A DNA stretch of 62,642 bases, filler included, from Chrysochromulina tobinii (taxonomy: Eukaryota): assembly GCA_001275005.1 (NCBI GenBank). It is 7 parts of 7 records of this genome, joined end to end, with 100 filler letters (N's around TTAATTAATTAA, not from the genome) between each part and the next. Parts side by side here need not be neighbours in the genome. Positions count along the whole stretch, not along the records: positions 1 to 18,809 come from JWZX01001269.1; positions 18,910 to 26,723 come from JWZX01001271.1; positions 26,824 to 31,723 come from JWZX01001274.1; positions 31,824 to 48,638 come from JWZX01001275.1; positions 48,739 to 52,103 come from JWZX01001277.1; 2 more parts are not named here. One strand, written 5' to 3'. Positions within the stretch are counted from its first letter, which is position 1. Every line of letters starts with the position of its first letter. This document shows positions 2,634 through 52,103 of this stretch, one piece after another. The position numbers and the translations under genes were made by a program. Below the pieces are notes generated by a model, which saw only the letters and a program-made list of their open reading frames with translations, had not been told where the DNA came from and ran no database searches.

Positions 2634-5600
2634 ATGGGCAAGAAGAAGGCGCCCCCAAAGCATGGCGCATCACCCGCAGCGGCTGGCGGCACCCAACAAA
2701 TGCCGACGCCCACCGCCGTAGCCCTGGAAGTAGCCGAGGATCCGACGCGTCAGCAGAGGACGCACTTGCTCGATGACAAAGAGCAGAGCACGAGCGGAGC
2801 TACCGCGCCCGCGCCCTCGGCTGCAGAATTGCGTCCGCCTTCCGTCATCGTCGCGGATGGAGCGCCGCTCGACGATCGGACGGCCGCCATCGCGGTCGAA
2901 GCGCCGGCCGATCCGTCGCTGCCACCTCTAACGGCGCGCCGCTCAAGGCTTAGTCGTATGACCTCAGAACACGCAATGAACGAGACGCGCACGCTCGACC
3001 AGGCGGGCGCACTCCACACGATTGGCGTCGATCAAAAGCGCGCACTGCGCGACGACGAGGTCGAGAGAGTGTGTGCGCAGCTCCGGGAGGCGATCGCGCT
3101 GCGCGAAAAGTATCGCTCCGACCATGATCGCGAGCTCTTCCACGGAGAGGAGGCGGTGCCGCCCGTGTCGGACGAAGACATGCCCGACCCCTTCGTGCCC
3201 ACCCCGTCCTTCCGCGGCGGCCATTACTCCTTCGAGATGCGCCGCGGCGTGATGTTGGTCTGGTCCGAGCACGGCGCGGACAAGTCAGGGCTGCGTCCGC
3301 CGGGTGCACAGATGCCGGCAAGCGTTCCGTGCTTTGTGGCGCCTCCGACCTTCGCCGAGTTCACCAACGACCTCGCACGCCTGATGGAGATCACCTCGAG
3401 CGCGGCGGTCAATTCGTTCTGCTACCGGCGGCTGCAGCGTCTCGACGCGCGCTTCAAGCTGCATGTGATGGAGCACGAGCAAGAGGAGTCGAAGGAGCAG
3501 CGCGAGTGCGTGATGACCTCTGATGGCCTCTGATGGCCTCTGATGGCCTCTGATGGCCTCTGATGGCCCTTGTGAGTGAGAACCTCTAAGATTGACCTCT
3601 AAACTGCGTCCCTCATCAGATGCCCGCATCGCGACTTTTACAACCTGCGCAAGGTGGACACGCACATCCATCTCGCGGCCGCGATGAACCAGAAGCACCT
3701 ACTCCGCTTCATGAAGCGGAAGATGCGCTACCATGCGGATGAGGTGGTGGCCAAGGGCGAGAAGGCACAGCCGATGACGCTGCAGCAGGTCTTCGATGAG
3801 ATGAAGCTCACAGCGTATGACCTGTCGATCGACGCGCTCGACATGCACACGGACTCATACACGTTCGCGCGCTTCGACAAGTTCAATCTCAAGTATAACC
3901 CACTCGGAAAGTCGAAGCTGCGCGAGATCTTCCTTAAGACGGATAACCAGCTCAAGGGCCGCTACTTTGCCGAGATCACCAAGGAGCTCTTCGATGACTT
4001 GAGCTTCTCCAAGTACCGGACAGCCCCTGATGACCACTGACGAGCACTGCTGACCACTGCTGACCACGCATGGCCACGTACGGCTGCGTTTGATTGCGTC
4101 TGATTGCGTCTGATGGCGTCGGATTGCATTGGATCACCTCAGGTACCAGCAGGCGGAGTACCGCATCTCGATCTACGGGCGCTCCAAGAAGGAATGGGAC
4201 CAGCTCGCTGATTGGATCGTCGATCACGAGCTGTACTCGCCGCACAACAGGTGGCTCATCCAAGTGCCCCGACTGTACGGGATGTACCAGTCGTCGCGCT
4301 CGCTGCGCACCTTCGGCGAGATGCTCGACAACATCTTCGTGCCTCTCTTTGAGGTGACCAACGACCCGTCATCGCACCCGAAGCTGCACCTCATGCTGCA
4401 GCAGGTCGTTGGCTTCGACTCGGTCGACGACGAGTCCAAGGCCGAGGAGCCGCTGTTCACGCCCGATACGCCCGCCGACGAGCCTGATCAGTGGACCGAG
4501 GGCAACCCGCACTACTGCTACTACACATACTACCTCTACGCCAACCTGTACGTGCTCAACCAGATGCGCGCGGCGCAGGGCCTCTCCTCCTTTTGCTTCC
4601 GGCCACACGCGGGCGAGGCGGGAGAGCTGAACCATCTGCATGGCGCGTACCTGACCGCACGTGGCATCAACCACGGCATCAACCTGCGAAAGTCTCCCTC
4701 GCTCCAGTACCTGTACTACCTCACCCAGATCGGGCTAGCACTCTCGCCGCTCTCGAACAACGCGCTCTTCCTCACACTCAGCAAGTCGCCCTTTAACGAA
4801 TTCTTCTCGGTCGGGCTCAACGTCTCACTCTCGACTGACGACCCGCTCATGTTCCACCACACGCGAGAGCCGCTGATGGAGGAGTACACCATCGCCAAGC
4901 AGGTGTGGAAGCTCTCTTCGGTCGACCTCGCCGAGATTGCGCGCAACTCTGTCCTCCAGTCCTCTTTTGAGCCGTGCGTTAAAGCCTTCTGGATCGGCAG
5001 CACGTACCGCCAGCGTGGCCCCGCAGGCAACGACATCCACCGTACCAACGTGCCCAACTTGCGAATGGAATTCCGCGAGGTGGCGCTCCGCGATGAGCTG
5101 CGTGCCGTGTACGAGTCGTACGACGTTACGTTGCTGGGCCGTCCGCAGCTCTCGCCCTCCATGAAACCGATCACCTCGTACATTGCCGCCGCACGCTATG
5201 CCGCGAGCACCAGCGCGCAGGCGGAGGCGCCGCAGCCCGCACAGGGTGCCATCGGCCACGGCGATAAGATCAGCAATGGCGCGAACGGACCGGCGGCACC
5301 GCCGCAAGCTCGTACCGCCGGCTCGTACCAACGGTACGACGGCCCCTTCGCGGCTGAGTTCAAGCTGGACGAATCTCGACGATCGGCTTACTCGCCCACG
5401 CGCAAGAGGTGGCCCGAGCCCGAGACGGCGCCCGAGACGGCGCCTCAGCCGCCTCAGCCGGCGCAGCCGCCGCAACTGCCGCCGGCAATCGCAGTGGGCG
5501 CGAGCGGCAGCGACCCGTCGAACACGCGCACCGGACGTGAGCGCGAGGCGGCCCAGGCCGGATGGCAACCTCGCGACCGTGTTCGGGAGCGTGGTGGCAT

Positions 5601-5832
5601 GCATCGCGCTTCTTCGAGCGCTTCGCTCGCGGCTGAGGGCTCACGTCACTCACAAAGTGACGACATCCACGCGCGGCTCGACGAGCAGCAGAGGCAGCTC
5701 GCACAATCGCAGGCCCTCGCGGCCGCTGCCGAGAGTCGCGCGCAGAGTGCGATGGTGATTAATCGGCTGCTGCTTCTCGTCGCCGTAGGGTGCGCGGCCA
5801 CCGCCGTCTTCGCCGTGACCCGTAGCAAGTAA
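2634..5832 (+). CDS. AMPD: AMP deaminase, 3 exons (2634-3505, 3620-4012, 4143-5832)
   Basis: Splicing restores [27 protein letters not shown] and [15 protein letters not shown]. Also present: [18 protein letters not shown] and [11 protein letters not shown]. Both introns are GT-AG. Confidence 0.95.
3506..3619 (+). other. Intron filled with (TGATGGCCTC)n decamers
   Basis: GTGCG...about 5 x TGATGGCCTC...CCTCATCAG; removal joins the AMPD frames in phase. Confidence 0.9.
4013..4142 (+). other. Intron with degenerate decamer repeats and a GTACC duplication at both junctions
   Basis: AA|GTACCGG...TGATTGCGTC TGATTGCGTC TGATGGCGTC...CACCTCAG|GTACCAG; removal restores SKYQQAEY. Confidence 0.9.
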
Positions 5833-6167
5833 CGCCGCTCGGCGAGCAGACGCGCCGAGTGCCCTTACGCTTTAGGAAAGAAAGCTATGATCGACTGCGC
5901 GAGCAGGGAGCTGAAGCGCGATGTTAGCGATCCGCGGTGGTTATGAGAACGTCAGACTGACGTCGAGCGGAGCGAGCCGGTGCGACGGACCACGGGAGAG
6001 CGAGGGTGCGGCGGAGGGTGCGCGGTCACCCGTCTGCCTTTTGAGCTCGACTAGTCCCCCACGCGCACAGTATTCACACAGACAGGACAGTACACGGCCT
6101 TGTGACGCCTTGACGCGTATTCAATTCATACCTGAAGATCTAGAATGATCGGATGTTAATCCGGTGT

Positions 6168-6472
6168 TCAGTTTCAGTTTCAGTTTCTTCGCGGTCCTAC
6201 CACGCTCACTCCACGACCACCGTCTCGACGGGGACGGCTCCGCTCCCCTCGGTCACGAACACAAGTACTGAGTACTCGCCGGTGATCGGACACCAGCATG
6301 ACGACCGAAACTGAGGAGCCCGAGAGCGAGCGAGTACTCAGTACTTGTGTTGACCCGACCGAGGGGAAGGCCGGCCGACGAGAGCCGACGCGAGCGCGGA
6401 GCCGTCGGCCCGTTGAGACGGTGGTGGTGTGACGGCGCGGGGGGACCGCGACGAAACTGACTGACTGACTGA
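6168..6472. repeat. Imperfect ~300-nt hairpin (foldback/MITE-like), member of a dispersed repeat family
   Basis: aacacaagtactgagtactcgc (6258-6279) is the exact reverse complement of 6330-6351. Further paired blocks: cccctcggtc/gaccgagggg, ccaccgtctcgacggg/cccgttgagacggtgg and cagtttcttcgcggtcc/ggaccgcgacgaaactg. Confidence 0.8.
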
Positions 6473-10248: not shown

Positions 10249-13200
10249 TCAGGATGTGGATGAAGGCAAGCGGCGCGCCTTTCTCATGCGAAAGGAGGTG
10301 ACCCAGTAGGCGAGCTTTCGCTCTGCTATCATCCGCCTCGAGGCGAACTCTGGCGGCTTGGCTGACACGAGCTTCTCAACCATGTCCTTCAACGTCGCAT
10401 CGAGCATGTTTTTCGACCAGGTAACGTCGTACGGGACGGAGATGGGGTTGTGCAAGTAGCACGCGAGATCGTAGCCCGCCCGTCGGATGCTGGGGTAGCC
10501 ATTCTCGGCTAGAACGCGGATGGCGCCGGGGTTGACCCGCTCGAGCTCCGCGGGCAGATTCTCGAGAAATGCGACCATCTGCTCATAATTGTAACTGCCG
10601 CTGGGCCGCCCGCTAATGTTGATGGAGATGAGCGGCTTGCCGGCGTCGAGCGCCGTGAGCATCTCAATGAGGCACCATGGTCGAGAGAGCACGCCAGGGG
10701 TGAGGATGACGACTAGGACGTCGGAGAGCCTCACATTGTCACGAAGTTCAGAGAGTGTCTTCAGGTTGTCCGAATCTAGAAAGACCTTCGGGTCTCGATG
10801 AATGATGTGCTCAGTGTCGCACGGCCTTTCCTTGTAGACCCTTTCGATGCCCTCCTTGAAGATGCGAGCCTCTGAGGCGGCTTCATACTTGTAGTGAGAG
10901 AGGAAGGCAATGTACGAGTACGAGCCACGGAGCATGTGGAGCCGCGCGCCAAACTCGGGGTCGAGGGCAGCGTCGATTGGAGTGAGGCCATCGGCAGTCG
11001 TGGCAGCGGGGCCAATGAGCGGCAGCCGCGTCCTTTTGAGCAGCATCTCACAGATCTCGTAATCATGCGCTGACGCCGCAGCATGCATCGGAGTGGCACC
11101 CCTGAGCGAGCACGCGCTGCGCTGGTCGTGCTGTGGAGAGAGCTCACCCAGCCGAATCAAAACGTCGACCATCTCCTTCAAGCCGGTAGCCGCGCTGAAC
11201 ATCATCAATGACCAGCCTGCGAGCTGCGAGCGCAGCGTGAGGAGGCTGCGTGCAAAGTCCCTCGAGGAGGGGGATGCCTGCTGGGCCTGCGCAGGCTCGC
11301 CCATCTCGGCGCCCGAGCTACTAGCGCGCATGCCGTTGGTGCTCTTCGGTTTCGACACGCCGCTGGCATCCCCCTCCTTCGCCGCCATCGCCATCGCCAC
11401 CTGCTTGATCGACACGCCGCTTGCATCCACCTGCTTTTCGAGCAGCGGTGGCAGCACTCCCCGGAGCAGCCCAAGCTCGTAGTCTTCCATATCCAGGTAC
11501 GCGGAGTTGAACGTCGATTTTGTGTGTGTCATGGCCCAAAGGCCAGTCTGCTCCTCGTTGAACACGGATGCGTACGGATCACGATATCCCACACTGTCGT
11601 TCGCGATCGGCCGCTTGCTGCTGCGTGAAACAAACGACTCCTCGCGCCGCGCGGCCACTTTTTGGCGGATCTCGGCGGCAAGCCGAGTGAGCGCAGCCAG
11701 GACTGCGTTCGCAGCGAGCTTGTGTAGCGGGTCCGTGGTGGACAGCCAACGCTCGTGCGAGTTCGCCACCTCCTCAACAACAAGCTCGTGAAACGAGATC
11801 GGCTTGGAAGCACAGAGCATCCACGCAGCAGCGCCGGTCAGCTCTGCCTCCATGGATGTGCTTGGCTTTGTCGGCTGCATCTCGACGGACTTGAGGACTG
11901 AGACCTCGTCTTCCGTGTCAAGGGCTGCAAAAACCAGCTGCGCCAGCATCATGAATTGGTACACGCGGCTCATCTGCACGGTTTGCCGGGTTTGGCTGTT
12001 ACGAAAAGCGATTCGCATGCAGTGGCGACACTCGTGCGCCCGCTGGAGGGGGGTATACCCAAGCGCGTCCTTCTGGGCGAGCATCGCGCGAAGCTCCGCG
12101 AGAGGCAGCTCTTTCGAGCCGATGGGCGGAATGTACTTGATCGAGCCGCGCATCACCGCGATGTGAAGCACATTCTGGCGGAGGAAATTGGCATCGGAGA
12201 GCACGTCGTGGGCACCGGGGGCAGGGAGCCTGCCATCGTCGGCCCTGTCCAATGCTGGCACCGTGCCCGACGCATCCATGGACGCGTCCATGCTTGACAG
12301 ATCCCCTGGGCGCAGCTGCATTACTTGATCGGCCACATCGCCCATCTCGTAGCGAAGGACGGTCAGTAGCTCGTCACGATCGCCACCGAGCTGACCGCCG
12401 GGCTCGAGGGCACAGAGCTGGCCCGCGCCGTAAGCCCAGAGCATCGATTGCGTTGTCGTGAGCCGATGGCACCAGCCGGCCGCAAAGCCAGCGAAGAAGG
12501 CATCGCCCGCACCGATGACGTCTCGCTTGATCGAAGGCGACTGAGTCAGGTAACGATGTGGCATCCGGAGCACACGGTCCTCGTGGCGGAGTGTTGGGCT
12601 GGCCTCTTCGGGCGGGTGGCTCACACGCGCGCGGCGCGGCGGCGAGCGCGTGCGCGCTCGGAGGACGACGCCAAGCTCAGCACGCACAATGCAGATGGTG
12701 AGGCCAGGAAAGGTGTTCAGCAACTCATCAGAGACCTCTTCCGCATCCGCGACGGTGATGATTGAACGCGGCAGGCCCAAGAGGACCGAGGCCTCCGTCG
12801 TGGTCAAGTATGCCATGTGCACCGAACCTTCCCGGAGGAAGTCGTTCACTTGCGGCGCATTGATAGAGTCCAGGGGAGAGAGTTTGAGAGCGACGAAAAT
12901 GCCAGCACGGCGCGCGTTGGCGGCGAGCTTGCGCATGGAACCCATATCCACCTCGAGCTGCATCAATAACATCTTGACGGCCGAGGGGCCGTGGAGCAGC
13001 TTGATCGCCGCATTCACCTCCCGGTCGGACACACTCATGTTGGCGCCGAGACAACAGACTGTCACCTTCTTACCAGTGTGTTGCCCGATAATCTGCACTG
13101 CGACGCCCGTTGCCTGCTCCTCCGCGCCAACATCTATCGATAGACAGCCCTCTCGCGTGACCCTGTGCAAAAAGTCTTTGATGGTCGTAGCAAGGCCGTC

Positions 13201-14763: not shown

Positions 14764-14961
14764 GTTTCAAAGTCTTTGAACCGGTTGGATTAGAGCACCG
14801 TCACAGACATGCGGACCTCTTCCCCGAAGAAAACTCCGTGTTAGAAGTCTCACAGACACACTTTCACATTCATACGGAAGTCTGTGATGGGCGGTCGGCG
14901 GCGAGTCTGCGCCACTCCAGTGAGAGTCTCCACGGGACCGGTGGTTGTGCGTCTTGCGTGA

Positions 14962-15751
14962 ATGGGCGACCGGCGAGCCCTCGTCCTCCTGCGCCACGGC
15001 ACTCCACTCGAGGAGGCAGTGGATCCCGCACGGCATCTTTCAGACGCGGGCAAGGCGCAGGCTGCTTTCGCTGCCAACGGACTGTGCGCATACTTGGAGT
15101 TGCCCTCCACCTTCGTGCCCATGGCATACGGCGAACCTTGTCCTGTGGCAATCTTTCACTCGGGGAAGGAGCGCGCCGCTCAGACCGCAAAGATTGTCAA
15201 CGACGGGCTCTCTGCTGCAAAATGCGAGACGACACTCACTGAGTGCGTTGCAGCGGCCTCAAACACTTCTGCCATCCCCACTGCCACGTCGGCTGAGTCT
15301 CACTGTACCACATTCCAGGAATGTTGCTGCACTCAAGCCCGACGCCGCTCCAGATGCGGCACTCGCCCTCGTCGCCGCCACTTCGACACCTCTCACCGTT
15401 CTCGTAGGGCACTTGCCAAACCTGCACCAGATTGCAACCAATTTGGGGATTGTCATAGGCGCAGACGCATTCGCACCCTGTGGTGGTGTTGTTCTCGAAG
15501 CAAACGGCAACGGCGGATGGATGCTTGCCCACCACATCGTCCCGGAGCAGGAGAAGAAGGACTGGTGGCGCCACGGCGTAAGCGTGCACATTCGCGCGGA
15601 TGAAACGGGCTGCGAAGACGTCGAACCTGTGACGCAGACGGCTGGCCACAAGTGCCCTTGCACAGAGTGCACCTGCGGTCCCGACTGCAAGTGTGCACCG
15701 GGCCAGCCGGGATGCGACCCTTGCTGCGCGTGGCAGAAGGCCAAGAGCTAG
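14962..15751 (+). CDS. SixA-like phosphohistidine phosphatase with a C-terminal metallothionein-like Cys-rich tail (intron 15243-15318)
   Basis: LLRHG, RHLSDAGKAQA, IFHSGKERAAQTA, LKPDAAP and LVGHLP are joined by an in-phase GT-AG intron. Tail: KCPCTECTCGPDCKCAPGQPGCDPCC. Confidence 0.85.
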
Positions 15752-19079: not shown

Positions 19080-20739
19080 TTGACGCCCTCGATCCAACTC
19101 TCAAACGAGTCGTCGGGTTCGTGGGTGGGTGCCTCGGGGCCAATCTCGGGGCCAATCTCGGGGCCAATCTCCCTTGATGACCTTGATGACAAGCAGCGCT
19201 TCGAGTTACGCGAGGCGCTGTCGACGTCTTCCGAGCTCTGCATGCCGCTGACCAAGCCGCAGGCCTCCATTCCCGAAGAGAGGCTGCGAGGGCCGCGCCG
19301 TCTACCGACTGACCCTCCACCTCAGCCCGGAGATCTAATGGAACTCTATTACGACGAGCCGGCCGGCTGCTGGTGCGAAGTGGTGGTGGTGCGCCTCGCG
19401 GAGAAGGTGAGCGCCATTGCGGGCGCGGACGAGGGCAGCACGGACGGCGGCGGCGGCAACAGCGGCAACAGCGGCAGCAGCGGCGATGGTGGCAGCAGCA
19501 GCAGTCCCCTGTTGGACACCCCAACCGTGCTGGTGCGCCACGCTGTCGACGGGACGGAAGAATGGGTCTGCGCCGACCATCTACGCCCTCGCCCACCAGC
19601 CGCACCCCACGACTTGCCATGGCTGGCCAAGCTGACGAAGACCGAATTGCTTGACTTGCGGTACGAAGGCAGTTGGTGGGAGGTACAACTCTTGAGCCGC
19701 GAGGCGAAGACCGAACGTCTGCAGGTGGGTCGTCCAGAACCCCTCCCACATTCGGGCGCTCCTCTGATTGCGCCTGATGAGCCCTCTGAGGACGAGATCG
19801 TATCTCGCCTGATTGCAGGTGCTCCTCCAGAATCCGTCCAAAATTCGCGTCGTAGCGGTGCGATATGGCAAGGTGCACGAGGTGTCACCGGCCGACCTTC
19901 GCCCATGGTGGCAGCGTGATGACGCCGGTGATTGGGTGTTCACGCTCGCGAAGCGAGCTCGTACGCTTGACCAGTGGCGAGCGACGCTCATGTTCGCGCA
20001 GCTCAAGATCCGAATGGCGTACCGCGTTTGTGGGCGCAACGGGTGCACTCTGATCAACGTGGGCGGGTATGCGCACCCGGGCTTGTGCCGGCCACCCGTG
20101 CCCACCGGCAGCAAGCGGCCGCGTGAGCCCGCACAGCCGTTCCGGCTGCAGCAGGAGTCTTCGCCAAGAAGCAGCGAGGAGCGTACACGCCGGCCTCCGG
20201 CGCAAGAAGAAGCGAGGAGCGGCGCAAGCGGCCGGCGGCACCATGGCAAGAAGAAGCAGCGAGGAGCGTACACGCCGGCCCCCGGCAAGGCCTTGGACGC
20301 AGACGAGAGCGACCCCGAGGCCGAGAGGTGGTGCGCGGTCTGCCACGACGGCGCCTGGAATGAGCCTGGCTTCAATCTCCGGGGCGAGTGGATCGAGGGG
20401 AATTGGATTTTATTTTGTGACGGGGAGCAGCGCTACGGGTGCAAGAATGCATACCACACGCTTTGCCTTGAGCCGCCGCTGCTTGCAGTGCCCGAAGGCG
20501 ATTGGTTCTGCCCGGTGTGTGTGGCCCGGCAGGCGGCGATGGCGCCTGCGATGGCGCCCGCGATGACGTCTGCGATGGCGCCCGCGACGGACGTGGCGTT
20601 GGCGATGGACGACCAGGACGTCGAGGAGTGGACAGCGGCGATGGACGACCACGACCTCGAGGAGAGTGAGGGCAGTGTCCCCTTCTCAGCGCACCCAGGG
20701 GCCCCTCTTCCCGCGTGGCGCATCGAAGAAGTGGACTAA
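19080..20739 (+). CDS. Tudor/Agenet-like plus PHD-finger chromatin protein, 5' end probably lost in the gap (intron 19725-19818)
   Basis: Agenet/Tudor-like [15 protein letters not shown] and [13 protein letters not shown]4HC3 PHD finger CAVC...[35 protein letters not shown] intron joins the two ORFs ([10 protein letters not shown]). Confidence 0.8.
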
Positions 20740-25440: not shown

Positions 25441-26312
25441 GGTCGATATTCGAGGCGAAGCCGGATTTAAGCCGGATTTCGATGCCCATCTCCAAAGATC
25501 GTGAGACAGCACATAGCTGGAGGGCCATAGATCGAGGCTAGGGACTATATGGAGTCATACAGCACCGAGAATCACGCCATCACAAGTCACTCTGCGCCAC
25601 TCAGATGTCACATTGTGACCCCGAGTACGGCCTGTGAGGTCGCGCTTTGGTCGCATTTCGGTACTTGGCCATGCAGAGCGACTTGTGATGGCGTGATTCT
25701 CGGTGCTGTATGACTCCATATAGTCCCTAGCCTCGATCTATGGCCCTCCAGCTATGTGCTGTCTCGTGATCTTTGGAGATGGGCATCGAAATCCGGCTTC
25801 GCCTCGAATGTCGACCAACTTATTGTCTAAGGTCAACTTCGATGAATATCTCCAAGGATCGCGAGACAGCACATAGCTGGAGGGCCCTAAATCGAGTCTA
25901 GGGACCGTATGGACTCATACAACACAGAGAATCACGCCAGTACAGGTCACTCTCGCCACTCAGATATCACATTGTGACCCCGAGTACGACCTGTGACGTC
26001 GCGTTTCGGTCGCATCTCGGTACTAGGGGCATGCAGAGCGACCTGTGATGGCGTGCTTCTCGGTGTCGTATGACACCATATGATCCTCAGACTCGATCTA
26101 TGGCCCTCCAGCTATGCACTATCTCTCGATCCTTGGAAATGTGCATCAAATTCCGGCTACGTCTCGCATCTCGAGCTACTTATTGTCTAAGGTCAATTTC
26201 GATGAACATCTCCAAGGATCGCGAGACAGCACATAGCTGGAGGGCCCTAGATCAAGTCTAGGGACCGTATGGATTCATACAACACAGAGAAGCACGCCAT
26301 CCCAAGTCACTG
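25441..26312. repeat. Tandem array of long palindromes (foldback-like), 360-bp period, 2.5 units
   Basis: Arm ...gatcg(t/c)gagacagcacatagctggagggcc... starts at 25497, 25857 and 26217; inverted arms lie at about 25674-25817 and 26033-26157. Confidence 0.92.
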
Positions 26313-27258
26313 TGTTGAGCACATGTATGCACCATGCTCGGGCAGGTCAGTGGAACATGCGGCAAATGTGTGTGATGAAATCGCTCCCAGTCGTATCTAT
26401 AAGTTCCTATGCGCCTCCGGCGCATTGCCGCGCCTCCGGCGCCGCCTCCGGCGGCGCCCTCGGGCGCTCCGCGCCCCCGCGCGCTGCGCGCGCGCCCCCC
26501 CCCAACACGGAAAAATTGCCTCTTTTTTGCTGCACTTTTTTGCCTCGCGGTATTTTCATGTCGATGCTCACAGGCTGGCACATCGACCGCCAAGGCCGCA
26601 GGCGCTACCCTCCCCCACGGGACTATGCGCAGGAGCTCCAGCCGGGCGGTCAGCCGACAGTGTTCGCACCACCCAACTGCTCGGCACGAGCGCGGGTCGG
26701 CTGCGTTGTGATGCTGCCCACGCNNNNNNNNNNNNNNNNNNNNNNNNNNNNNNNNNNNNNNNNNNNNTTAATTAATTAANNNNNNNNNNNNNNNNNNNNN
26801 NNNNNNNNNNNNNNNNNNNNNNNAAAACCTGGTCACACTTGCTGGTATTCCGCAAACCTGGTAACACTTGGTAATCCGCACGTCGTCGCTGGCGCACGCG
26901 GGCCCACTGCCTGCCCCAGCTGCTCGCGCGCGCAAAGGTATCCGTCTGCACTACCGTTGGCCTGGCCCCGAGCGCTGACGCGCACGATCATCGCGCGCTC
27001 CTATGCCCAGCACCGTGCCGCGCGCGCGCGTGGCGCCAGCCCCGCAGCGCCCGCGCCGAGCAATCGTGCATTGGAGCATGGCACACAGGCGACAAGCAAC
27101 ATCGCTGAGCGCGCGCGCGCATGCGGCGAGCCACTCCAGTGCCCGCACGCCGGCGATCGATATTGCGCGACTCATCGCGCGCTACCCGCCCGCCTGCCTT
27201 CCTACGCAGACTACATCCTGAGACTTCAAGACACCGAACCCGAGAGAGCCTCGAGATC

Positions 27259-31553: not shown

Positions 31554-31587
<34 letters not shown>

Positions 31588-35798: not shown

Positions 35799-35851
<53 letters not shown>

Positions 35852-38082: not shown

Positions 38083-40896
38083 TCAAAAATTGCGGAAGGG
38101 ATCCTTCCTTCGCGGCTTGCGTCGCAGCCAGCGGGCGAGGACGAGCAGAATGGCAACGATCGAGACCACAGTGAGAGCGAGCTTCGCACGACGGTTGCCG
38201 TGCTGCTCCTCCTCCATCAGCTCGTGCTCAGCTTCCGCGGCCGCCACGGCCGCATCGCTCGCCGCTCGCCCATGAGGGTGAGGCAATAACGACAGGTGGT
38301 GCCCGCCGTGAGGTCTACCGTCTTGAGGGATCGCCAACTTGCCGACATGAGCGTCATGAGGCAACGTCAGCGTGCCGTGCGGCGCCGCCGCGTGCAGCCT
38401 CAACGCGTGCGCCGCCGCGCCCGCCGCACCCACTGCGCCCGCCGCGCCCACCGCGTCCGCCGCGCCCGCCGCCTCGGAAGCCCAGGAGCGTTTCGCGCGC
38501 TCCTCTTCGAAGACTTTTCGGATGGATGCCGTGCGCCGCGCCTCGGCTGCAGCGTCCCGATCGTGAGCCACCTTGGCAGGTGCGTGCAGCCCGCGCCCAG
38601 CCTGCCGCTCCAGCCACTCCGGCACCTTGCCGGGCGCGTACTCGCCTCTGTGATGCTCTGCGACGAGCCGCAGCTCGTCCTGGAGCGACCCGGAGGGTTG
38701 GGGTGCGCGAGAAGGCGAGATGGCGTCGTGGTGTACCGCGCCCGGACCCGCCTGAGCACCCGGCGCATGCAGTGCCCTCGACGTGCGCACGTGCCCGGTG
38801 ATGGGCGCCGGTGCGTGCGAGGGCGAGGTGCTTCGCGCGTGATACCTGTCGGCGAGTGGCTTCGGGGCATGCGAGGGCGAGAGGAGCCCGTGCGCGTGGC
38901 TGATGGCCGGCAAGTGGAAACCGTGAACGGGCGCCACGTCATGGCGTGTGTGCACGGGCGCCAAGTGATCGCCCGGCGCAACATCGGTATGCACGGTCGC
39001 GGGGGCGATTGAGGCGCCAGCCATTCTCTGTGAATGGACGGGAGCGATATCGGTGTGAATGGTGGCGGGGGCTGCGCCGCCTCCAGTGCCCGTCGCCCTG
39101 GCAGTCGCTCTCAAAGCCTCCTCGTCTAGTCCCGCTACCTTGGACACCGATGCCTTCGCCACCGCTGCTGCCTGCTCCGCCGCCGCCGCCGCCGCCTGTT
39201 CCACCGCCGCGCTTGGCGTCCCCAATTGCTGGTTTGTCAACTTGAGAGCCTGCAGGCCGCCCATTGCCTTGGCCAGGCGCGAATCCGCCGCGCTCGCTAC
39301 CACCGCTACGCCCAGCTGCTGCCCTGCCACGCCCGTGGCGGCGCACCTGCAACATGATGAGAGAGGCAATCAGAGGCCATCAGAGGCCATCAGACAGGCA
39401 CGGCTCTAGTGGCGGCGCACCTGCAACATGATGAGAGAGGCAATCAGAGGCCATCAGAGGCCATCAGACAGGCACGGCCCTAGTGGCGGCGCACCTGCAA
39501 AATGATGAGGGAGGCAATCAGAGGCCATCAGAGGCCATCAGACAGGCACGGCTCTAGTGGCGGCGCACCTGCAACATGATGAGGGAGGCAATCAGAGGCC
39601 ATCAGAGGCCATCACGGCTCTAGTGGCGGCGCACCTGCCGCACGCGAGAGGGCACGCGCCGTTCATGAAGCCTTGATTGAGCTCACACTGCTCATCGAGA
39701 GCCCACTGCCAGCACATGGGCTGCGAGTCCTTGCAGCACGCTGCGGCGCTCGCTCCCTCGGGGCACGGCGCCTCGGAAGGGCGGGTCGTCGGCGGGCACG
39801 CGACCGCGGCCGCCGCAGATCCAGGCGCGCAATGGGCAGACGAGTGATAGAACTTGCAGAACCCAGCATTGAGCGTATTCACGACGTAGCGCATGGCCTC
39901 GTGGCGCGGCAAGCCGTTGCCTGCGGGTGGCGGGCCGAAGAATAGGCCCTTACAGCTGAACAGGTCGAGTTTCTGGTACGACATCTTGTTCCAGTTGTAG
40001 CTGCTGTCGATGGTGAAGTCGATGCCATAATGGAGGATGCGGGGTCCTTGACCGCTATCCTGCACTTCGCCCGGGTAGCGCACGATGCCCTGCGTGATGA
40101 TGTGCTCGACGCCGGCGAGCGCGGCACCGAAGGCGTACCCGTACATCTCGGAGATCCACGGCGCCTTGCCAAACTCGACGTACACGTCACCAGTCGGGAT
40201 GTTGTGGGGTATCGAGCCGTTGATCGACCAGTAGCGCTGCGGCTCCAAGCGCACGCGGCCGCAGTACTCGAGCCACAGCGGCGCGATGCGCTTGAGGTCG
40301 TCGCGGTGGAAGATGTGGTACCAGCCTACAGGCTTCGCACGCGGCACCGCCTCTGCCGGCAGGAACTCGGCCGCCATCCCGTTCGAGGTGCCGATCATGT
40401 ACGGGACGTACTCTGAGACGACGACGCCCTTACGGGCGCCGAGCGCGACAGGGTCGATGGGCCGGCGTAGCACCATGTCGGCGTCGATAAAGAGCACAAA
40501 CTCCTCCGAAAAGTTGGCCTCGCGCGAGAAGTGCATCACCGACGCGGGCTTGTTGTAGGAGGCAGACGTGTCATTGTTGAGCGGATTGTGCCGGTAGTTG
40601 GGGTGCACGAACGTTGGGCCGAGGTCAAGGCCCTTGTACTTCTTGAGGTCCTCCTGAGAGCATGCGAGCAGCCGCGTGATGCTGCCGCGCATGCCTGACA
40701 CCCGGAACGACTCGTACACACCCGCCGTGAACCAATCAAACTGCTTATTATTGCACTCCGAAGTGAACACGGTGTGTAAGTTGCGAGAACCACGCCCATG
40801 CGCTTCGTCATCAATTTGCTGGCCATGGCTAGTTGGGCCTAGTAGGTAATCTTGTGCGGAACCGAGCAGGGCGAAGAAGACGAGGGTCACCGTCAT
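38083..40896 (-). CDS. Peptidyl-serine alpha-galactosyltransferase (SGT1/GT96)-like protein + ShK domain + Ala/His-rich stalk + C-terminal TM (intron 39347-39634)
   Basis: LHTVFTSEC..FDW, ITRLLAC, YNKPASV, FIDADM and WISEMYGYAFGAA; ShK CKD...CWQWA...QC..N..FM...CPLACGRC. Splicing joins CGR|CAATGVAG; TM is LALTVVSIVAILLVLA. Confidence 0.85.
39335..39638 (-). repeat. Intron made of four tandem GT...AG units (66/74/74/74 bp), each bounded by the 16-nt exon-junction sequence
   Basis: gtggcggcgcacctgc at 39335, 39409, 39483, 39557 and 39623; each unit holds TGATGGCCTC decamers on the minus strand. Confidence 0.92.
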
Positions 40897-43714: not shown

Positions 43715-43987
43715 ATCGGAGCCGAATCGGCGGAGCGGCGGAATGCACTCGCGGAGACGTTTCAGGCCTTCGAGCAAAATCTCAAGATCCCACAGCCCCG
43801 CGGAAGTGTTTGCTCTTTTTACAGTCTGTTCGGGTTTGATTTCTTGTTGGGGCAGCTGTGGACATTCAGGTTTGGGGCCGCCCCGCACCTGCAATCGGCC
43901 CCTCGCGCAAATTCAACGATTGACGCAGAAGCAAAACGCTGGGGGGGGAAAGCACAATTTCCTGCGTCCTTCGGACTCTCGAGTCTC

Positions 43988-44017
43988 GACTTGACTTGAC
44001 TTGACTTGACTTGACTT
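43988..44017. repeat. (GACTT)6 microsatellite (reverse strand of CAAGT) between divergent ORFs
   Basis: gacttgacttgacttgacttgacttgactt seen directly. Confidence 0.9.
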
Positions 44018-44060
44018 CGCGTTTCGGGTCTTTCATTCGAAGTGGTCTTCTTCGCTGTCC

Positions 44061-44516: not shown

Positions 44517-46739
44517 CTAGACTCGCGTCACGCCGTTCTGTGTCAACCTGAACCGTGCCACTTCCTCAGGCTCTATTGTGAAGGGCAGCCCCGCGGGTGG
44601 CTCGCCGCGCTCGCCCAGCAGCGTGACGTAGTACTGCATGCGCCGCCGCTTGGCCTTGTGGGCCCGGTGGGCGCCGCCGCGGTGCCACAAGGTCGTGTCG
44701 TACAGCAGCACCGCCCCTTTGAGCAACGGCAGCGCCACCGGTTTTAACGTTGAGGGCCGCTGCGCCCCCGCCGCGAGCGAGACAGCCATGAAGGCGGCGT
44801 TGGCGTTGGCAGAGTGGGCGAAGGTGCCCGGGAAAATTTCGAGAGGCCCCATAGGCGCTGTAACCTCCATCGCCCCCACTTGGCACTTGAGTGCACGCGC
44901 CTCCAACGGCCAGTGAGCGCCGTTTGTGTCTGAATGAATTGGTTGGGCTACAGCGCCAGGCGCCGAGACGAGCATGCCGCTCTCCACGAGGCGCAGCGCC
45001 ACGTCGCCGCACTCGCCAGAGCTTGTCCCCAGCAGTGCTGCGCACACGAGAGGGTGGAGTACTTGGCCAACGGCTCGCAAGGCAGCGAGCACCGAGGGGG
45101 CTTGCAATGAGACGGCGAGGTGACGTCGCCGATGCGGCGCGAATGTGCTGTTGGTGGTCTCGTAGGCCGCGCCCGTTGCTCCCGTCGAGCCGGCGCCACC
45201 GCGGCGAGCATCCGATGATGGTTCCAAGATCACCGAATCCGTGAGCCCTTCTGTCCCTGATGCGCCGTCATGTGTGCTGTCACGGTCAACGACTCGGCCT
45301 TCCACTCTCTTGGCTTGACTTGACTTGGCTTGACTTGACTTGACTTCCAGTCTCTTGGCGCCCTGGCTGCTGAGCAGCGTGCGAAGGTGGCTCGCGAGGT
45401 CGTCGGCCAAGTGTGCCGGCAGCACATCGCGGATGATCACGGCGCCGTAGCGGCGGTAGACTGCGAGCGCACGCGCGAGCCACCTTCGCTCAGGAGCCTC
45501 AGAGGTAGCATTGACGGTCAGTGCGATCGCGGACGCGGGAACGCGCTTGATGCTCGATCCAGTGTCATCGTGAGCATCGACGTCCTTCTCGTCCTCGTCC
45601 TCCCCGTCTTCGTCCTTCGTGTCGCTGCCACTGCCGCCTCGGTCATCTACGGCCACACGCAGCGAGCTCGCGTGCGCCGTCTTGAGCACCGTCTGCCGCT
45701 CGCCCATCGGCGGCGGCGCCGTCTTGAGCACCGCCACCTCCGCCGCCGCCCCCGTTGCCGCCGTTGCCGCTGTTGCCGCCGCCGCTGTTGCCGCCGCCGC
45801 TGTTGCCGCCGCCGCTGTTGCCGCCGCCGCTGTTGCCGCCGCCGCCTCCCACTGCTCATGAGCATCGAGGAGTGTCAGAGAGTCGCTGCGAGGATAGAGG
45901 CCGATGGCACGCCGCCATGCGGCAGCAGCTTCGAACCTCAAAGCCGTCGGCGGCGTCGGCGGCGTCGGCGGAGACGTCGTCGTCGTCGCCGTCGCCGCCT
46001 CGGCCCGGCTGCAGTACAGCGAGGCCACGCCAGACCTATGCAATACGTCCGCATCGTGCGGCGCAAGCTTGGCGGCACGGCGCAGCGCTATGCGCGCGGT
46101 GCACGGCGCATGCAGGGCCATGCTCGCCTGTCCGAGCCCAAAGTAAGCCGCGCTTGCCTTGCGATCGAGCCGGAGCGCTTGCTTCATCGCCGCCACGGCC
46201 TCTGACGGCCGTCCGTCGGCGAGAAGCGCGTTGCCTGCCTCCACGTGCGCCGCGGCCGTGGGCGCGAGGCGGGCTGCATGAGCGCGGGCATCCGCAGAAC
46301 TGACCGCGTTGTGCTCGAGCGCACGCGCTAGCTGTGTGTAGGCTGCGGGGTCGCTCGGCGACAGGGCCGTTGCGGCTTGCAGAGGGTGCACAGCTTCAGA
46401 GGCACGACCTGCGCCGAGCAGCGCGATGCCAAGGTTGAGCCTGAGATCAAAGCTCTCAGGGTTAAGCCGCTCGGCACGTGCGAAGGATGCTGCTGCACGC
46501 GCAAAGTCGCCTGCAGCGACCGACTCCTGACCGTCGAGTGCGAGCAGAAACTCATTCGTCGGCAGCAAGGCAAGTGCGCTGCGCGTGCACGCGAGCGCCT
46601 CCTGACTTCGATCGTTGAGCGACGCAGTGGCATGACAAAGACGTTCGTGCGACCCTTCGGCCGGCACCGCTCGCGCGTAGAGACTGCGGGCTGTCTCGAA
46701 ATCGCCGCGTCGGGCGGCGGCGTCCCCATCGACTAACAT
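44517..46739 (-). CDS. TPR-repeat protein fused to a phytanoyl-CoA dioxygenase (PhyH)-type 2OG-Fe(II) domain
   Basis: N-terminal TPRs (RLNLGIALL..GR..EA); C-terminal YRRYGAVIIRDVL, PGAVAQPIHSDT, GPLEIFPGT, GAVLLYDTTLWHRGGAH and YYVT. Confidence 0.85.
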   Translation of the reverse strand: MLVDGDAAARRGDFETARSLYARAVPAEGSHERLCHATASLNDRSQEALACTRSALALLPTNEFLLALDGQESVAAGDFARAAASFARAERLNPESFDLRLNLGIALLGAGRASEAVHPLQAATALSPSDPAAYTQLARALEHNAVSSADARAHAARLAPTAAAHVEAGNALLADGRPSEAVAAMKQALRLDRKASAAYFGLGQASMALHAPCTARIALRRAAKLAPHDADVLHRSGVASLYCSRAEAATATTTTSPPTPPTPPTALRFEAAAAWRRAIGLYPRSDSLTLLDAHEQWEAAAATAAAATAAAATAAAATAAAATAATAATGAAAEVAVLKTAPPPMGERQTVLKTAHASSLRVAVDDRGGSGSDTKDEDGEDEDEKDVDAHDDTGSSIKRVPASAIALTVNATSEAPERRWLARALAVYRRYGAVIIRDVLPAHLADDLASHLRTLLSSQGAKRLEVKSSQAKSSQAKRVEGRVVDRDSTHDGASGTEGLTDSVILEPSSDARRGGAGSTGATGAAYETTNSTFAPHRRRHLAVSLQAPSVLAALRAVGQVLHPLVCAALLGTSSGECGDVALRLVESGMLVSAPGAVAQPIHSDTNGAHWPLEARALKCQVGAMEVTAPMGPLEIFPGTFAHSANANAAFMAVSLAAGAQRPSTLKPVALPLLKGAVLLYDTTLWHRGGAHRAHKAKRRRMQYYVTLLGERGEPPAGLPFTIEPEEVARFRLTQNGVTRV

Positions 46740-46774
46740 GCGAGAAGTCCGATTTGCGATGAAATCGAGCAAAT

Positions 46775-46833
46775 CAAGATCAAGTCAAGTCAAGTTTTCC
46801 GACTCGACTCGACTCGACTTGACTTGACTTGAC
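46775..46833. repeat. Inverted (CAAGT)n...(ACTTG)n microsatellite pair between divergent ORFs
   Basis: tcaagtcaagtcaagt-tttccgactcgactcgactcg-acttgacttgacttga. Confidence 0.8.
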
Positions 46834-46962
46834 GAACTCTGTCAAGCCCAAAAGCAGTTTCAGCCGGTTTCACTCCAGTTCGGAGCTGTAAGTTCTCTCC
46901 TTTTGCCGCGCTCATCCACTGCCATGTTATCGCCGCCGGGCTCAAAACGAGTGTGCGCGCCG

Positions 46963-48638
46963 ATGCCAGGCCTCGCCACGAGCGACGAAGACTTTCAAAT
47001 AGATGAGTACGGAAGCATCGGTGGTATCGTGCAACCGAGCGAAGCGCCTCCCGCGCCGCCCTCAACCGGCAACGATCGGATCAAGAGGATGTTCTTCAAC
47101 TTTGTGCAGCAAGAGCCGGGCAAGACGCGGCCAGAGTGCAGCTTCCCCAGCGGATCCTCTGAGAAGGCGATGCGCTCCCTTAGGACCGGCCAGAGTGGGC
47201 GGCACCCGATCTCCAGGCGGCCACTCTGCCTCATCCCCACCGCCGACATCCTACTCAGCTCGGGCAGCGAGAAGCTTGAGAAACGGCCGGCCGTCGCCAA
47301 GCGGCGGGCCGTCGCGAGCCGTGAGGACCACATCTCGCCTGCGATACCCGGCGCACTGCTCGCCTCGAGCCAGAAGCCGGCGAAGCGCCCGGCTCTCGCC
47401 AAGCGTCCGGCCGTCGTGAGCCATGAGGGCAAGGACGAGGTGACACTGATGGAAGTGGTCGCGCGCGTCATGCGAGAGGTGCGTGCTTGCCATCGTTCCT
47501 CGTCGCCACACCTGCCCGAGAATGCGTCGGCGAGACCCGCTGATAGCAGTGCTGGCAGAGGCGGCGGCAGCTGCTGCAGCAGCCTGACGAGCACTCACAG
47601 CGGCGCTCAAGGCGCTGGCAGCAGCAGCAGCAGCAGCAGCAGCAACGCCGCGACTATAGAGCCCCCCCGCGCAGCCGCGAACGGTACAGCGCTCACCGTC
47701 CGCCGTCGCGAGCACGACCGGCGGCGCAGAGGAAGCCAGCCGGGCGATCGTGGCGGAGGTGATGGCCCAGGTGCGATCCTGCCATCACAGCGCGCGGCCG
47801 CATCTGATGCCTCGAGCGCTCGAGCGGTTCTAAGGTCAGGTCTAGCACCTGCCATATCGCTGAGGACATGACGCTTTTTTTTGCCCAAGGAGGTGTCTAG
47901 AGGTGTGTCGAGACTCCCTGGAGTTAGAATGGGCTCCCCGGAGGCGCGGGGGGGGCGAAAACTTTGACGTGTTCGAAACGACGCGATCGTGGAACGAAGG
48001 CGCTTCGTCACTATGCGGATCGTGGAACGAAGGCCGGCATGCCGGAGCTCGTCACGCCTGAGCTCACACTCGTTCGCGTTGCTGATAAGGAGGCGCTGAA
48101 CGAGTACGCCACGGCTCGCACAGCTGCCGGGGCTAGCGTGGACAGACACCTTAAGGCGAATCTGTCGCAGCTGTTGGGTTTTGACCAGGTTGGAAATGAT
48201 CGAAAGAAAAGATGGGAAGCTTCAGATGGGACACGCGGCACATTCTACAATCTGGCAGACGTCTCGTGGTTTTATCACGCAGGCCTTCAAGAGGCGATCC
48301 CGCTCTTCGGCACGGCTGCTGCGAAGCACAGACAGCTTAAGCTCCAGCATGTCATCACAGATGGTGTTGACGTGTTCAAGCAGGTCATGGAAGGCAAGCG
48401 CTCTTCCAGAGAAGGATGGTTTTGTGACCTGCCGCCCCCAGCGCTAGCCACGCTACCTGATGGTGCTAGTATCATTGGACTCGCCGCGGCGCGGAATCAT
48501 GGGGCGGCAGGCACCGTGCTGCCAGACGCGCCACCCGTTGCCATCATTGGACCCGCCGTCACCGCGCCCGTCACCGCGCCCGTCGCCGTCGTCGTGCCCG
48601 CCGCGGCGCTCGCTGCAGCCGCCGCTATCCCCATCGCT
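46963..48638 (+). other. Unassigned ORF fragments (46903-47871 and 47964 to the gap)
   Basis: Open frames with protein-like composition but no recognisable family motif. Confidence 0.3.
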
Positions 48639-48738
48639 NNNNNNNNNNNNNNNNNNNNNNNNNNNNNNNNNNNNNNNNNNNNTTAATTAATTAANNNNNN
48701 NNNNNNNNNNNNNNNNNNNNNNNNNNNNNNNNNNNNNN

Positions 48739-50130: not shown

Positions 50131-50497
50131 GCCTCACAGGTAGAGTAGCGTTGGGAATGTATGGCCAGCCGGAAGGCGAACGTTGGCGGGTTTCCGCCGG
50201 GCCAATCTTAACATTACCCATTGTACTCGTTACAACGGTGAGGCCGTATTCACATACATACCGTCTCGGAACGGTAACGAAGTCAGAGTTAGTGATCGAT
50301 GGAGCTGAGTTTTGAAAACAGTGAGCTTGTGCTCTCTCCGAGCGAGGGTTCGTGCGTGGTGTGGGAGGGCGCGACACAATAACAACCACAGAGAAGAAGA
50401 AGAAGTCAAGGTCACTCGCGTCGCGCGAGCGCGACTGATGCGTGATGGTTCCTCCGAAACTGTTGCCTGTTGGTCTTTAGGTGGTCAGTGCCTGAGG

Positions 50498-52103
50498 TCA
50501 CGCGTGCCCGGACTGCCGTCCCGAAGGGTGCTCGTTGGCAGGCGCGAGGGCGATCGCGACCGCAAGATTCTCGGCCGCGCGCCCCAGCTGCCCTTCAAGC
50601 GCAAGCGTTGTGCCCAGGCCGAAGTATAAGGCTGGATCGACGGGCGTCAGGCTGATGGCGACCTTGTAGTGACGCGCCGCCTCGGGCAGCCGTTGCTCGC
50701 GTCGCATCAGCTTTGCGAGGTAGGAGTGCACGGCGACGTGCCCCGGCTCTGCCTCCACCGCGCGCCGAAAGGCGTGCTCGGCCATTTGGACCTCTCCCGT
50801 GTCCATCAGGGTCGCCCCGAGGTTCACGTGAGCGTCGTACCTGCGGGGAGGGCGATCGGCGTCGTGGTGAGCACTCGCATGCAAGGCGCAAGGAGGCGTC
50901 GCCCCGAGGGCCACGTGCATGCATGCATGCCTCGGCGTCGTGGTGAGCACTCGCATGCAAGGCGCAAGGTGGCGTCGCCCCGAGGGCCACGTGCATGCGT
51001 GCATGCCTCACCAATGGGGCCACTGAGGACCTCCGCCGGAGAGGACCTCTGCCTTGATGGCGCGAGCATAGCGCCGTGCTGCCTCCGCCACCCGACCGGT
51101 GCGTTGGAGGGCCTCAGCATAGCAATACTGAGCGTGAGGCCAACCGCCCGAGGATCCCTTGAAGGATCCCTCCTCCAGGCCGTCCCCCCGGCCGTCGCCC
51201 TGTTCGTCACCTCTCATCGTTGTTCGCACTGCTCGCTCAAAGCTGGCCATCGAGCGCTCACCACGGCGCGAGTAGAACCATAGGTTGACCGCCGTGTTGA
51301 GGGCGGGCCATGCGGCGGCTTCTTCGAGCGACATAGCAGCTGTTCCATTCTCTGAGGCCGCGCAGTTCGCTCCAGCCGGGTCGGAGGCCGCGCACGTTGC
51401 TGCAGCGGCTGTGCCCTCCACCTGCGACGACGGCACGTGCATCGGTGCATGCATCGATGTCTCGTCCTCTGACAGGCCCGACACGACCGCATGAGACCAG
51501 AGGGCCGGTAGGAAGAGCGTCTGACCTGATGAGAGAGGCCATCAGAGGTCATCAGGGGTCATCAGGGGTCATCAGAGGTCATCAGGAGAGGGCCGGTAGG
51601 AAGAGCGTCTGACCCGGGCGCAGCTTGCATATGCGCGCGTGCGGCACGAGACGAGCCCACTCCTCGTCGCTGGGCGCTCCAGCCTCTCCTTCCAGATGCA
51701 AGACCTCCTCGTCAGCAAACACGGCAAGCGCGGCGTGATTCTCAAGTGTTGCACCGCCTCGACCACTCCGTGGCGAGTGCGTCTCAAACGAGAGCGATGG
51801 GCGGCCCGCAACTTCGGAGCCTGTGGCGTTCGAGTACACGTGCTCGGATCGGGGTCGATACCGGAGGAGCCCGTGCAGCTCCGGAGGAAAGAGCAGCACC
51901 TCCTTCTCGCCACGAAGCTGCACGAGGAGATTGTCGTGCCCGTCGTAGTGCAGCGCGGAGCGCATGCCCTTGTGCGGCGGGTTGAGCCACAGGTTTGACC
52001 GTTGGAGCGCATCGCCGGCTAGGTGCAGGGCGCGACGAAGCGGCAGCGCATCGCGCACCTTGGGTGAGTGGTCGAGCGAGACGGCCGAGGCGTACGCGTA
52101 GTG
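50498..52103 (-). CDS. JmjC/cupin_8 oxygenase with C-terminal TPRs (introns 51526-51613 and 50841-51011); 5' end in the gap
   Basis: SNLWL, SALHYDGHDNLLVQLRGEKEVLLFPP; spliced LRPGQTLFLPALWSHAV; spliced PHWYDAHVNLGATL followed by TPRs. Confidence 0.88.

What the first reader, a model, noticed from the sequence alone, without database searches (positions are those of the whole stretch)
3506..51613. 'Exon-echo' decamer introns: candidate undescribed intron-gain system
Seen: introns in unrelated genes share one design. The 5' part of the intron, including its GT donor, is a copy of the start of the downstream exon. In most cases a variable number of TGATGGCCTC-type decamers follows, then a CTCATCAG or TGCAG acceptor. 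Cases: JmjC-TPR 51526-51613 (28-nt exact duplication), SGT1 39347-39634 (16 nt exact), PHD 19725-19818 (23/29), JmjC-TPR 50841-51011 (18/20, no decamers), AMPD 4013-4142 (5 nt), AMPD 3506-3619 (clean decamers, minimal echo) and SixA 15243-15318 (decayed). Established: introner elements create introns using target-site duplications as splice sites, usually with TIRs and short fixed TSDs. The decamer contains CTGAT, which fits the CURAY branch-point consensus. Inference: variable long duplications plus a variable number of repeats and no TIRs fit staggered-break repair or target-primed reverse transcription. A repeat filler would supply the branch point and acceptor, and the duplicated target would supply the donor. 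The identity gradient looks like an age series.
Basis: partly seen in the sequence, partly recalled or inferred. Interest (0 to 1): 0.9.

Follow-up and report, generated by a model that had tools for sequence, protein, structure and literature searches.

The report
Introns copying themselves along algal genes
In this alga many introns start with a 10-45-base copy of the next exon followed by a piece shared with other introns, often introns of the same gene, and one such insert is present in some assemblies and missing from near-identical others, so new introns are likely being made by a copying slip that borrows from existing introns, probably without a transposon.

Summary
Real and genome-wide. 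RNA contigs skip exactly three of the seven introns. Four of seven echoes beat chance; AMPD 3506 has none. In 126 related loci plus the window, 43 of 92 decamer-type acceptors and 39 of 70 acceptors of a second, non-repeat filler carry a 10-56-nt echo, against 0.2% by chance. Fillers are copied from other introns: the best match is in the same locus for 22 of 53 (2.9 expected), and several daughters carry the parent's exon echo, with 5-7-nt microhomology at the junctions. One daughter is present in 15 and absent in 17 near-identical protein records that keep the parent intron unspliced: a recent gain. Best reading: a microhomology-guided double template switch, filtered by splicing; DNA versus RNA template is open. 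Plain TPRT fits less well, because filler ends and duplication register vary. Known introners have fixed 3-8-nt duplications; Daphnia gains have 4-12-nt repeats and unknown sources. This scan noted the same footprint before on another piece of this genome (e1-2577349).

The parts
3506..3619 (+). AMP deaminase intron 1: family A, six decamers and CCCTCATCAG acceptor; no measurable echo
   Evidence: RNA joint in 4 of 4 runs; Pfam continuity; echo p=0.64
4013..4142 (+). AMP deaminase intron 2: family A, decayed decamer variants, 5-nt echo
   Evidence: RNA joint in 3 of 4 runs, 5 letters fit both sides; echo p=0.10
15243..15318 (+).
   Evidence: RNA joint in 4 of 4 runs; echo p=0.07
19725..19818 (+). 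Predicted intron upstream of a PHD finger; decayed echo and decayed decamers, TGCAG acceptor
   Evidence: open frame on removal; echo p=0.002; not RNA-tested
39347..39634 (-). Predicted intron in an HPAT/SGT1-like ShK gene: four tandem units of echo, three decamers and CCTCATCAT(G/T)TTGCAG
   Evidence: echo p=0.005; both ends also in a DNA run, unit number not verified
50841..51011 (-). Predicted intron in the TPR part of the JmjC-TPR gene: decayed in-register echo and two family B cores
   Evidence: echo p=0.002; relative P0193 continuous
50865..50882 (-). Family B core (GCATGC.AGTGCTCACCA) nearest the acceptor, with CTCAC as likely branch point
51526..51613 (-). Predicted intron in the JmjC domain: 27-nt exact echo plus 61-nt family A filler
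   Evidence: 11 protein records stop inside it and 2 read through without it
51587..51613 (-). Echo copy that supplies the GT donor
51526..51586 (-). Filler: five decamers and TCTCATCAG acceptor
51499..51525 (-). Exon copy of the duplicated 27 nt

Best explanation
These are spliceosomal introns whose ends carry a variable 10-45-nt duplication of the host exon around a 40-100-nt piece shared with other introns, and they likely arise when a DNA strand being extended in an exon slips, through a few matching bases, onto an existing intron (often of the same gene), copies part of it, and slips back upstream of where it left. Shown: the architecture, its genome-wide excess, splicing of three cases, same-locus kinship of fillers, daughters carrying the parent's echo, microhomology at junctions, one presence/absence polymorphism. 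Inferred: the double template switch, the enzyme (a repair or replication polymerase, polymerase theta-like by analogy, recalled), and that selection keeps only events with GT/GC, a branch point, AG and about 55-65 nt or more. The fillers spread because they make safe introns: the five commonest decamers tested hold no GT or AG, repeat a CTGAY branch-like word and put stops in all three frames. After gain the echo drifts toward the donor consensus, arrays slip, and the echo-flanked unit duplicates in tandem. Whether the template is DNA or unspliced/intron RNA is open.
For: Echo excess 43 of 92 and 39 of 70 against 0.15-0.2% in shuffled pairs and 2 of 91, 3 of 70 in a shifted control. 126 of 354 filler clusters have an exact flanking repeat of 12 nt or more against 9 of 1062 shuffled, in several registers including the upstream exon end and repeats with no splice site (classes are crude). 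5' junction overlap with the decamer phase 2.9 nt against 1.0, n=15, p=5e-5. Best filler match in the same locus and strand: family B 22 of 53 (2.9 expected, permutation p=0.001) with distance decay. Same-strand filler density 0.53/kb within 1 kb of an anchor against 0.08-0.10/kb at 7-10 kb. Pedigrees: L031 intron 1 begins with 30 of 32 nt of exon 3's start, leaves at CCGCAG, returns at ACCTC inside the parent's pyrimidine tract, 14-nt duplication; L040 leaves at GGAGCAG, returns at TTGCTC, 21-nt duplication; L065 daughter shares 45 nt including the parent's echo end; L012 whole-intron copy 1.2 kb upstream; L008 unit found in L034, another contig. L031 insert present in 15 and absent in 17 of 33 listed records (1 uninformative) that are near-identical upstream (120-122 of 122 where fully covered); all absent ones read into unspliced intron 2, 12 of them on contigs of 4.5-10 kb, with other intron-2 haplotypes; outgroup P0217/P0259 lacks both.
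Against: Family A same-locus signal is weak (8 of 51 best matches, 1.7 expected, but mean-score permutation p=0.10). Same-locus likeness could come from gene conversion between introns already there. Only five pedigrees, picked partly by eye; foreign exon starts at score 10 or more were 2 of 568 same-locus against 18 of 25294 other pairs. The largest class does end exactly at an intron's AG, as an RNA template would give. A near-identical 54-nt donor-carrying unit recurs in unlinked genes, as a dedicated element would. No presence/absence in seven orthologous alignments. The L031 insert is 78 nt, in frame and stop-free, and its splicing was not tested. Only about 0.76 Mb was examined, chosen by a decamer pattern.
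Confidence: 0.6

Rival explanations
1. Target-primed reverse transcription: a LINE-type or other RT primes at a staggered nick on the 3' end of an excised intron or a SINE-like RNA, giving 5'-truncated intron ends with variable target duplications.
For: Commonest class ends precisely at CTCATCAG or CCCCACAG with variable 5' ends and microhomology; duplications of variable length; neighbouring fillers on one strand, 250 against 7 within 1.5 kb; local RNA could explain the same-gene bias.
Against: Many inserts stop inside the array or pyrimidine tract and return by microhomology; donor-carrying copies exist; no longer element body among frequent 14-mers or beside the two longest arrays; no RT domain in 52 of 259 long ORFs scanned (a weak test); precise AG ends and strand bias follow from splicing selection alone.
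Confidence: 0.2
2. A dedicated non-autonomous DNA element (introner, MITE or Replitron-like HUH element) is mobilised in trans, and host repair makes the long variable duplication.
For: Dispersed near-identical 54-nt unit in L007 (two places) and L017; conserved 25-nt family B core; 7-nt inverted ends on the JmjC filler; Replitron-1 makes variable duplications, fuzzy ends copied from the parent's flank, and one locus is reported in Chrysochromulina tobinii (PMC10288648); earlier scan note e1-2577349 read it this way.
Against: Ends fall at many phases of the decamer and 0-27 nt before the B core; same-gene kinship and clustering; no stable structure in 5 of 6 folds; unrelated fillers share the footprint.
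Confidence: 0.12
3. The positions are old; echoes come from tandem duplication across the acceptor of existing introns, followed by loss of the first unit.
For: 18 of 82 echoes follow a filler acceptor; L008 has an older donor before five tandem units; alleles differ in unit number. This is a real secondary process.
Against: Near-identical haplotypes lack the L031 insert; 9 of 12 AMPD relatives aligned are continuous at both positions (the other 3 do not cover one or both), including a single 2430-nt ORF on a 21-kb contig; P0193 is continuous at both JmjC-TPR positions; it cannot put exon 3's start into intron 1.
Confidence: 0.07
4. Assembly artefact or unspliced repeats.
For: Short-read assemblers can mis-count tandem units; unit number at 39347-39634 is not verified.
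Against: Exact RNA joints; echoes in two separate sets of assemblies, 15 of 38 and 66 of 122; the same introns align between assemblies.
Confidence: 0.01

Closest known systems
Intron gain during staggered double-strand-break repair, Daphnia pulex (Li et al. 2014, PMC4202315; passages)
   Same: Exon end repeated at the far end of the new intron; repeated secondary events at the same site; alleles with and without the intron.
   Different: Daphnia repeats are 4-12 bp and the source of most inserts is unknown; here 10-56 nt (median about 24), the source is other introns, and a few fillers dominate the genome.
Introners of Polarella/Symbiodinium (Roy et al., bioRxiv 10.1101/2020.10.14.339549; parts 1-2 of 4) and of marine Chrysochromulina sp. 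(Gozashti et al. 2022, PMC9860276; passages and supplement rows)
   Same: One splice site from the target duplication, the other carried; many related introns; the donor-carrying unit resembles the described Chrysochromulina type (carries 5' site, no TIR).
   Different: Those have fixed 3-8-nt duplications per class and defined ends. The 2025 survey lists no introner family for C. tobinii and one Emiliania family with 10-bp terminal direct repeats (PMC12130899 supplement rows); whether this organism is C. tobinii was not tested.
Same-gene intron duplications in fungi (Collemare et al. 2013, PMC3609843; passages) and intron transposition by reverse splicing (Yenerall and Zhou 2012, PMC3443670; passages)
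   Same: An intron copied to a new place in its own gene.
   Different: Rare there (82 of 1610 duplicated introns) and whole introns without long duplication; here common, partial, and flanked by long duplications.
Tandem genomic duplication at AGGT (PMC3443670; passages)
   Same: Duplicated exon sequence gives splice sites; explains the tandem units.
   Different: Needs no foreign filler; here a piece of another intron lies between the copies.
Replitron-1 (Craig 2023, PMC10288648; passages and section 9 part 1)
   Same: Variable duplication, one orientation, flank carried over from the parent copy.
   Different: 0.9-3.6-kb elements with fixed 6-bp direct termini and a transposase; not reported there as intron makers in the passages seen.

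Membership tests
Introner (transposon-derived) | Many related introns at unrelated sites | tested here: met
Introner (transposon-derived) | Splice site recruited from a target duplication | tested here: met
   GT/GC start in 71 of 82 echoes; RNA joints
Introner (transposon-derived) | Fixed short duplication length per family | tested here: not met
   10-44 nt (A) and 10-56 nt (B) among those scoring 10 or more
Introner (transposon-derived) | Defined element ends or terminal inverted repeats | tested here: not met
   variable ends; only an incidental 7-nt inverted end
Introner (transposon-derived) | Presence/absence among close relatives | tested here: met
   L031 insert 15 with, 17 without; window JmjC intron 11 with, 2 without, ambiguous
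Introner (transposon-derived) | Autonomous partner with transposase | not testable with these tools
   no whole genome held
Non-LTR retroposon / SINE (TPRT) | Variable target duplication | tested here: met
Non-LTR retroposon / SINE (TPRT) | One constant end with a tail, truncation at the other | tested here: inconclusive
   holds for the commonest class, fails for inserts that end inside the filler
Non-LTR retroposon / SINE (TPRT) | RT-encoding element sharing the tail | tested here: inconclusive
   none in 52 of 259 long ORFs; about 1% of a genome seen
Intron gain by break repair with templated insertion | Direct repeat of exon sequence at the intron ends | tested here: met
Intron gain by break repair with templated insertion | Microhomology at junctions and a nearby template | tested here: met
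Intron gain by break repair with templated insertion | Dependence on a repair polymerase | not testable with these tools
   needs genetics
Intron transposition by reverse splicing | Whole intron moved without target duplication | tested here: not met
   long duplications and partial copies; only L012 fits
Replitron / HUH element | Short direct terminal repeats and Rep transposase | not tested
   no Replitron profile searched; variable ends speak against

The most novel reading that the evidence does not exclude
A self-amplifying route of intron gain with no element-encoded enzyme and no fixed element: existing introns serve as repair templates for neighbouring exons, so introns spread along genes, and each new intron carries an exon barcode that names its birthplace and lets parent-daughter pedigrees be read from the genome.
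Probability: 0.45. Interest if true: 0.9.

Novelty: new variant of a known kind. Interest (0 to 1): 0.8.

Why it matters
The source sequence and mechanism of most newly gained introns are unknown outside transposon-derived introners (PMC4202315, PMC3443670, passages). Here source, junctions, direction of copying and an empty allele can all be read, probably for thousands of introns (0.08-0.18 filler clusters per kb away from anchors, times an assumed genome of some 60 Mb). That makes template-switch, RT and transposon models directly testable in a culturable alga. Introner screens that need end-to-end intron similarity would likely miss this class, because a third or more of each intron is gene-specific. 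Gene callers read into these introns and truncate proteins.

Tried and rejected
No whole genome or contig handles, so no census. First read-laying was swamped by repeat copies and showed no splice joint for 39347-39634; its summed depth of 22,190 against about 50 suggests high copy number but is no count. One call could not cover both the SGT1-like and JmjC introns, so four cases lack RNA. Decamer and acceptor patterns: 0 in viral contigs, 0 in prokaryote genomes; family B once, at the end of one viral contig, likely chimeric. Open-frame test after intron removal was uninformative, 37 of 51 against 36 of 51 in the shifted control. Echo-versus-insert anticorrelation (A rho -0.80, n=18; B not significant) is partly built in by the length cap and echo decay, so not used. 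Folding: z between -0.9 and +0.5 for 5 of 6, -2.4 for the AMPD array. Seven orthologous alignments showed no presence/absence. P0192/P0210 lacking the window JmjC intron may be partly spliced RNA (seen), a deletion or a collapse over the 28-nt repeat, and P0208 shares their markers but has the intron; treated as ambiguous. The likeness of the SGT1-like unit to L109 may be chance. Telomerase and hammerhead ideas (recalled) dropped: no support in sequence. Not-in-print claim rests on nine library searches, which miss most subscription papers; the Gozashti 2022 supplement was cut when stored, files 13-14 of the 2025 one were not searched, and the bioRxiv supplements were not seen, so introner consensus sequences could not be compared. 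PMC4580454, PMC8469720 and PMC4122922 were seen as passages and describe nothing like this.
Full report
Setting. The window is GC-rich eukaryotic DNA; the nearest named AMP deaminase of like divergence is Prymnesium parvum at 78%, so a haptophyte. 'Chrysochromulina-like' is my recollection, not tested. No whole genome is held.

Observation. All seven coordinates hold. RNA contigs skip exactly 3506-3619, 4013-4142 and 15243-15318, the only joints listed in 14.1 kb. The other four rest on reading frame and relatives. Against random starts from the window, four echoes are significant, two borderline, and AMPD 3506 has none.

Genome-wide test. Among terminal acceptors, de-duplicated by downstream sequence, 43 of 92 of family A (decamers, CTCATCAG) have an upstream copy of the exon start scoring 10 or more, against 0.15% of 1335 shuffled pairs and 2 of 91 in a shifted control. 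A second filler, family B (GCATGCAAGTGCTCACCACGGCGCC, pyrimidines, CCCCACAG), gives 39 of 70 against 0.2% of 999 and 3 of 70. Echoes run 10-56 nt and start GT or GC in 71 of 82. A looser set of 145, which includes some tandem-unit picks, has median 24 nt and shortest intron 54 nt. Two sets of assemblies split by contig prefix both show it, 15 of 38 and 66 of 122.

Anatomy. The general form is repeat, filler, repeat. Of 354 filler clusters, 126 have an exact flanking repeat of 12 nt or more (null 9 of 1062); the repeat may be the next exon's start, the previous exon's end, or hold no splice site (crude classes). A third, near-identical 54-nt unit carries its own donor and joins two decamers to the B core. 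Where an array directly follows the echo, the overlap with the decamer phase averages 2.9 nt against 1.0 (n=15, p=5e-5). The five decamers tested lack GT and AG and give stops in all frames. In 68 introns, mismatches at +1 to +5 move the intron copy toward the donor consensus 14 times and away twice.

Source of the filler. For family B the best match is in the same locus and strand for 22 of 53 (2.9 expected, p=0.001), falling with distance; family A gives 8 of 51 (1.7 expected) but p=0.10 on means. Fillers cluster on one strand near anchors, 0.53 against 0.08-0.10 per kb. Pairs sharing filler plus 7 or more non-filler bases are 10 of 797 within loci and 41 of 63645 between, most of the latter trivial. 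Five pedigrees are readable. In L031, intron 1 of a cupin gene begins with exon 3's start, so it was copied from an echo unit in intron 2; it leaves at CCGCAG, returns at ACCTC inside the parent's pyrimidine tract, and duplicates 14 nt. L040 shows 7- and 6-nt microhomologies and a 21-nt duplication. L065 and L012 carry the echo of an intron 1.7 kb upstream and 1.2 kb downstream. A unit with the L008 echo sits in L034, another contig.

Gain. For the L031 daughter, 33 of 52 cluster members were listed: 15 carry the insert (13 whole, 2 variant), 17 lack it, 1 does not reach the site. Identity upstream is 120-122 of 122 where fully covered. All 17 read on into unspliced intron 2, 12 on contigs of 4.5-10 kb, and their intron-2 starts differ from those of the carriers, so they are other genomic haplotypes rather than spliced RNA; a relative at 79-85% lacks both introns. 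The insert's splicing is untested, and back-deletion is not excluded. For the window's JmjC intron 11 records stop inside it and 2 read through, which is ambiguous. AMPD relatives are continuous at both positions in 9 of 12 aligned, the rest not covering them. Seven orthologous alignments show shared introns that differ only in repeat and unit number.

Mechanism. Leaving an exon at one microhomology, copying part of an intron, and returning upstream at another explains the duplication, its variable length and register, the partial copies and the local bias (inferred). Splicing selection explains GT starts, AG ends, strand bias and minimum length (inferred). TPRT fits the commonest class but not inserts that end inside the filler; a dedicated element fits the 54-nt unit but not the variable ends; in-place remodelling is real but secondary. 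The template may be DNA or RNA: in L040 a full intron circle would offer the same left junction.

Comparison and novelty. Introners have fixed 3-8-nt duplications; Daphnia gains have 4-12-bp repeats and mostly unknown sources; same-gene intron copies are rare in fungi; Replitron-1 has variable duplications but fixed termini. Nine searches found no description of this design, with the limits listed under Tried and rejected. New here are the second and third fillers, same-gene pedigrees, junction microhomology, RNA joints and the empty allele. Verdict: real, a new variant of intron gain by duplication and templated insertion, possibly a distinct element-free route; interest 0.8.

Noticed in passing
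window 60990-62642: Tandem array of roughly 170-190-nt units rich in decamer-like words (TGATGGCTCA, TGATTGCATC), running off the window end; a satellite that may be related to family A.
   Followed up: no
window 43980-44023, 45306-45349, 46798-46835; L065 near 230-250: GACTT pentamer arrays, apparently between genes; high summed depth in a DNA run.
   Followed up: no
window 25478-26311; L034 7243-8301: 360-nt tandem repeat shared with another contig, with a lone family B-like core near 26321 on the minus strand.
   Followed up: no
window 47888-48630: Multi-copy repeat with many variants in DNA and RNA runs.
   Followed up: no
allele of window 51300-51500 in P0192 and P0210: These records carry a 17-residue duplication and a 21-residue in-frame insert with a 4-residue repeat between two copies of AAAVSL(E/D)E: the same repeat-filler-repeat form, read through in frame.
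   Followed up: partly
L007 9537 (+) and 7608 (minus-strand index), L017 4963: Near-identical 54-nt donor-carrying unit in unlinked genes, acceptor from a duplicated exon end; closest to the published Chrysochromulina introner type.
   Followed up: partly
window 39347-39634 and L109 250-345: The SGT1-like unit resembles an echo unit of an unrelated gene over 13 nt plus head, so it may have been copied into a look-alike site; may be chance.
   Followed up: partly
window 10249-14766, 44517-46784; L065: Long ORFs without stops (1505 and 755 aa) sit beside genes crowded with filler introns such as L065.
   Followed up: partly
window 382-2490: LRR gene built of 84-nt repeats, with relatives in L031.
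   Followed up: no
L127 4230-4554: A viral-collection contig ends in a family B intron, likely algal DNA joined to it.
   Followed up: partly
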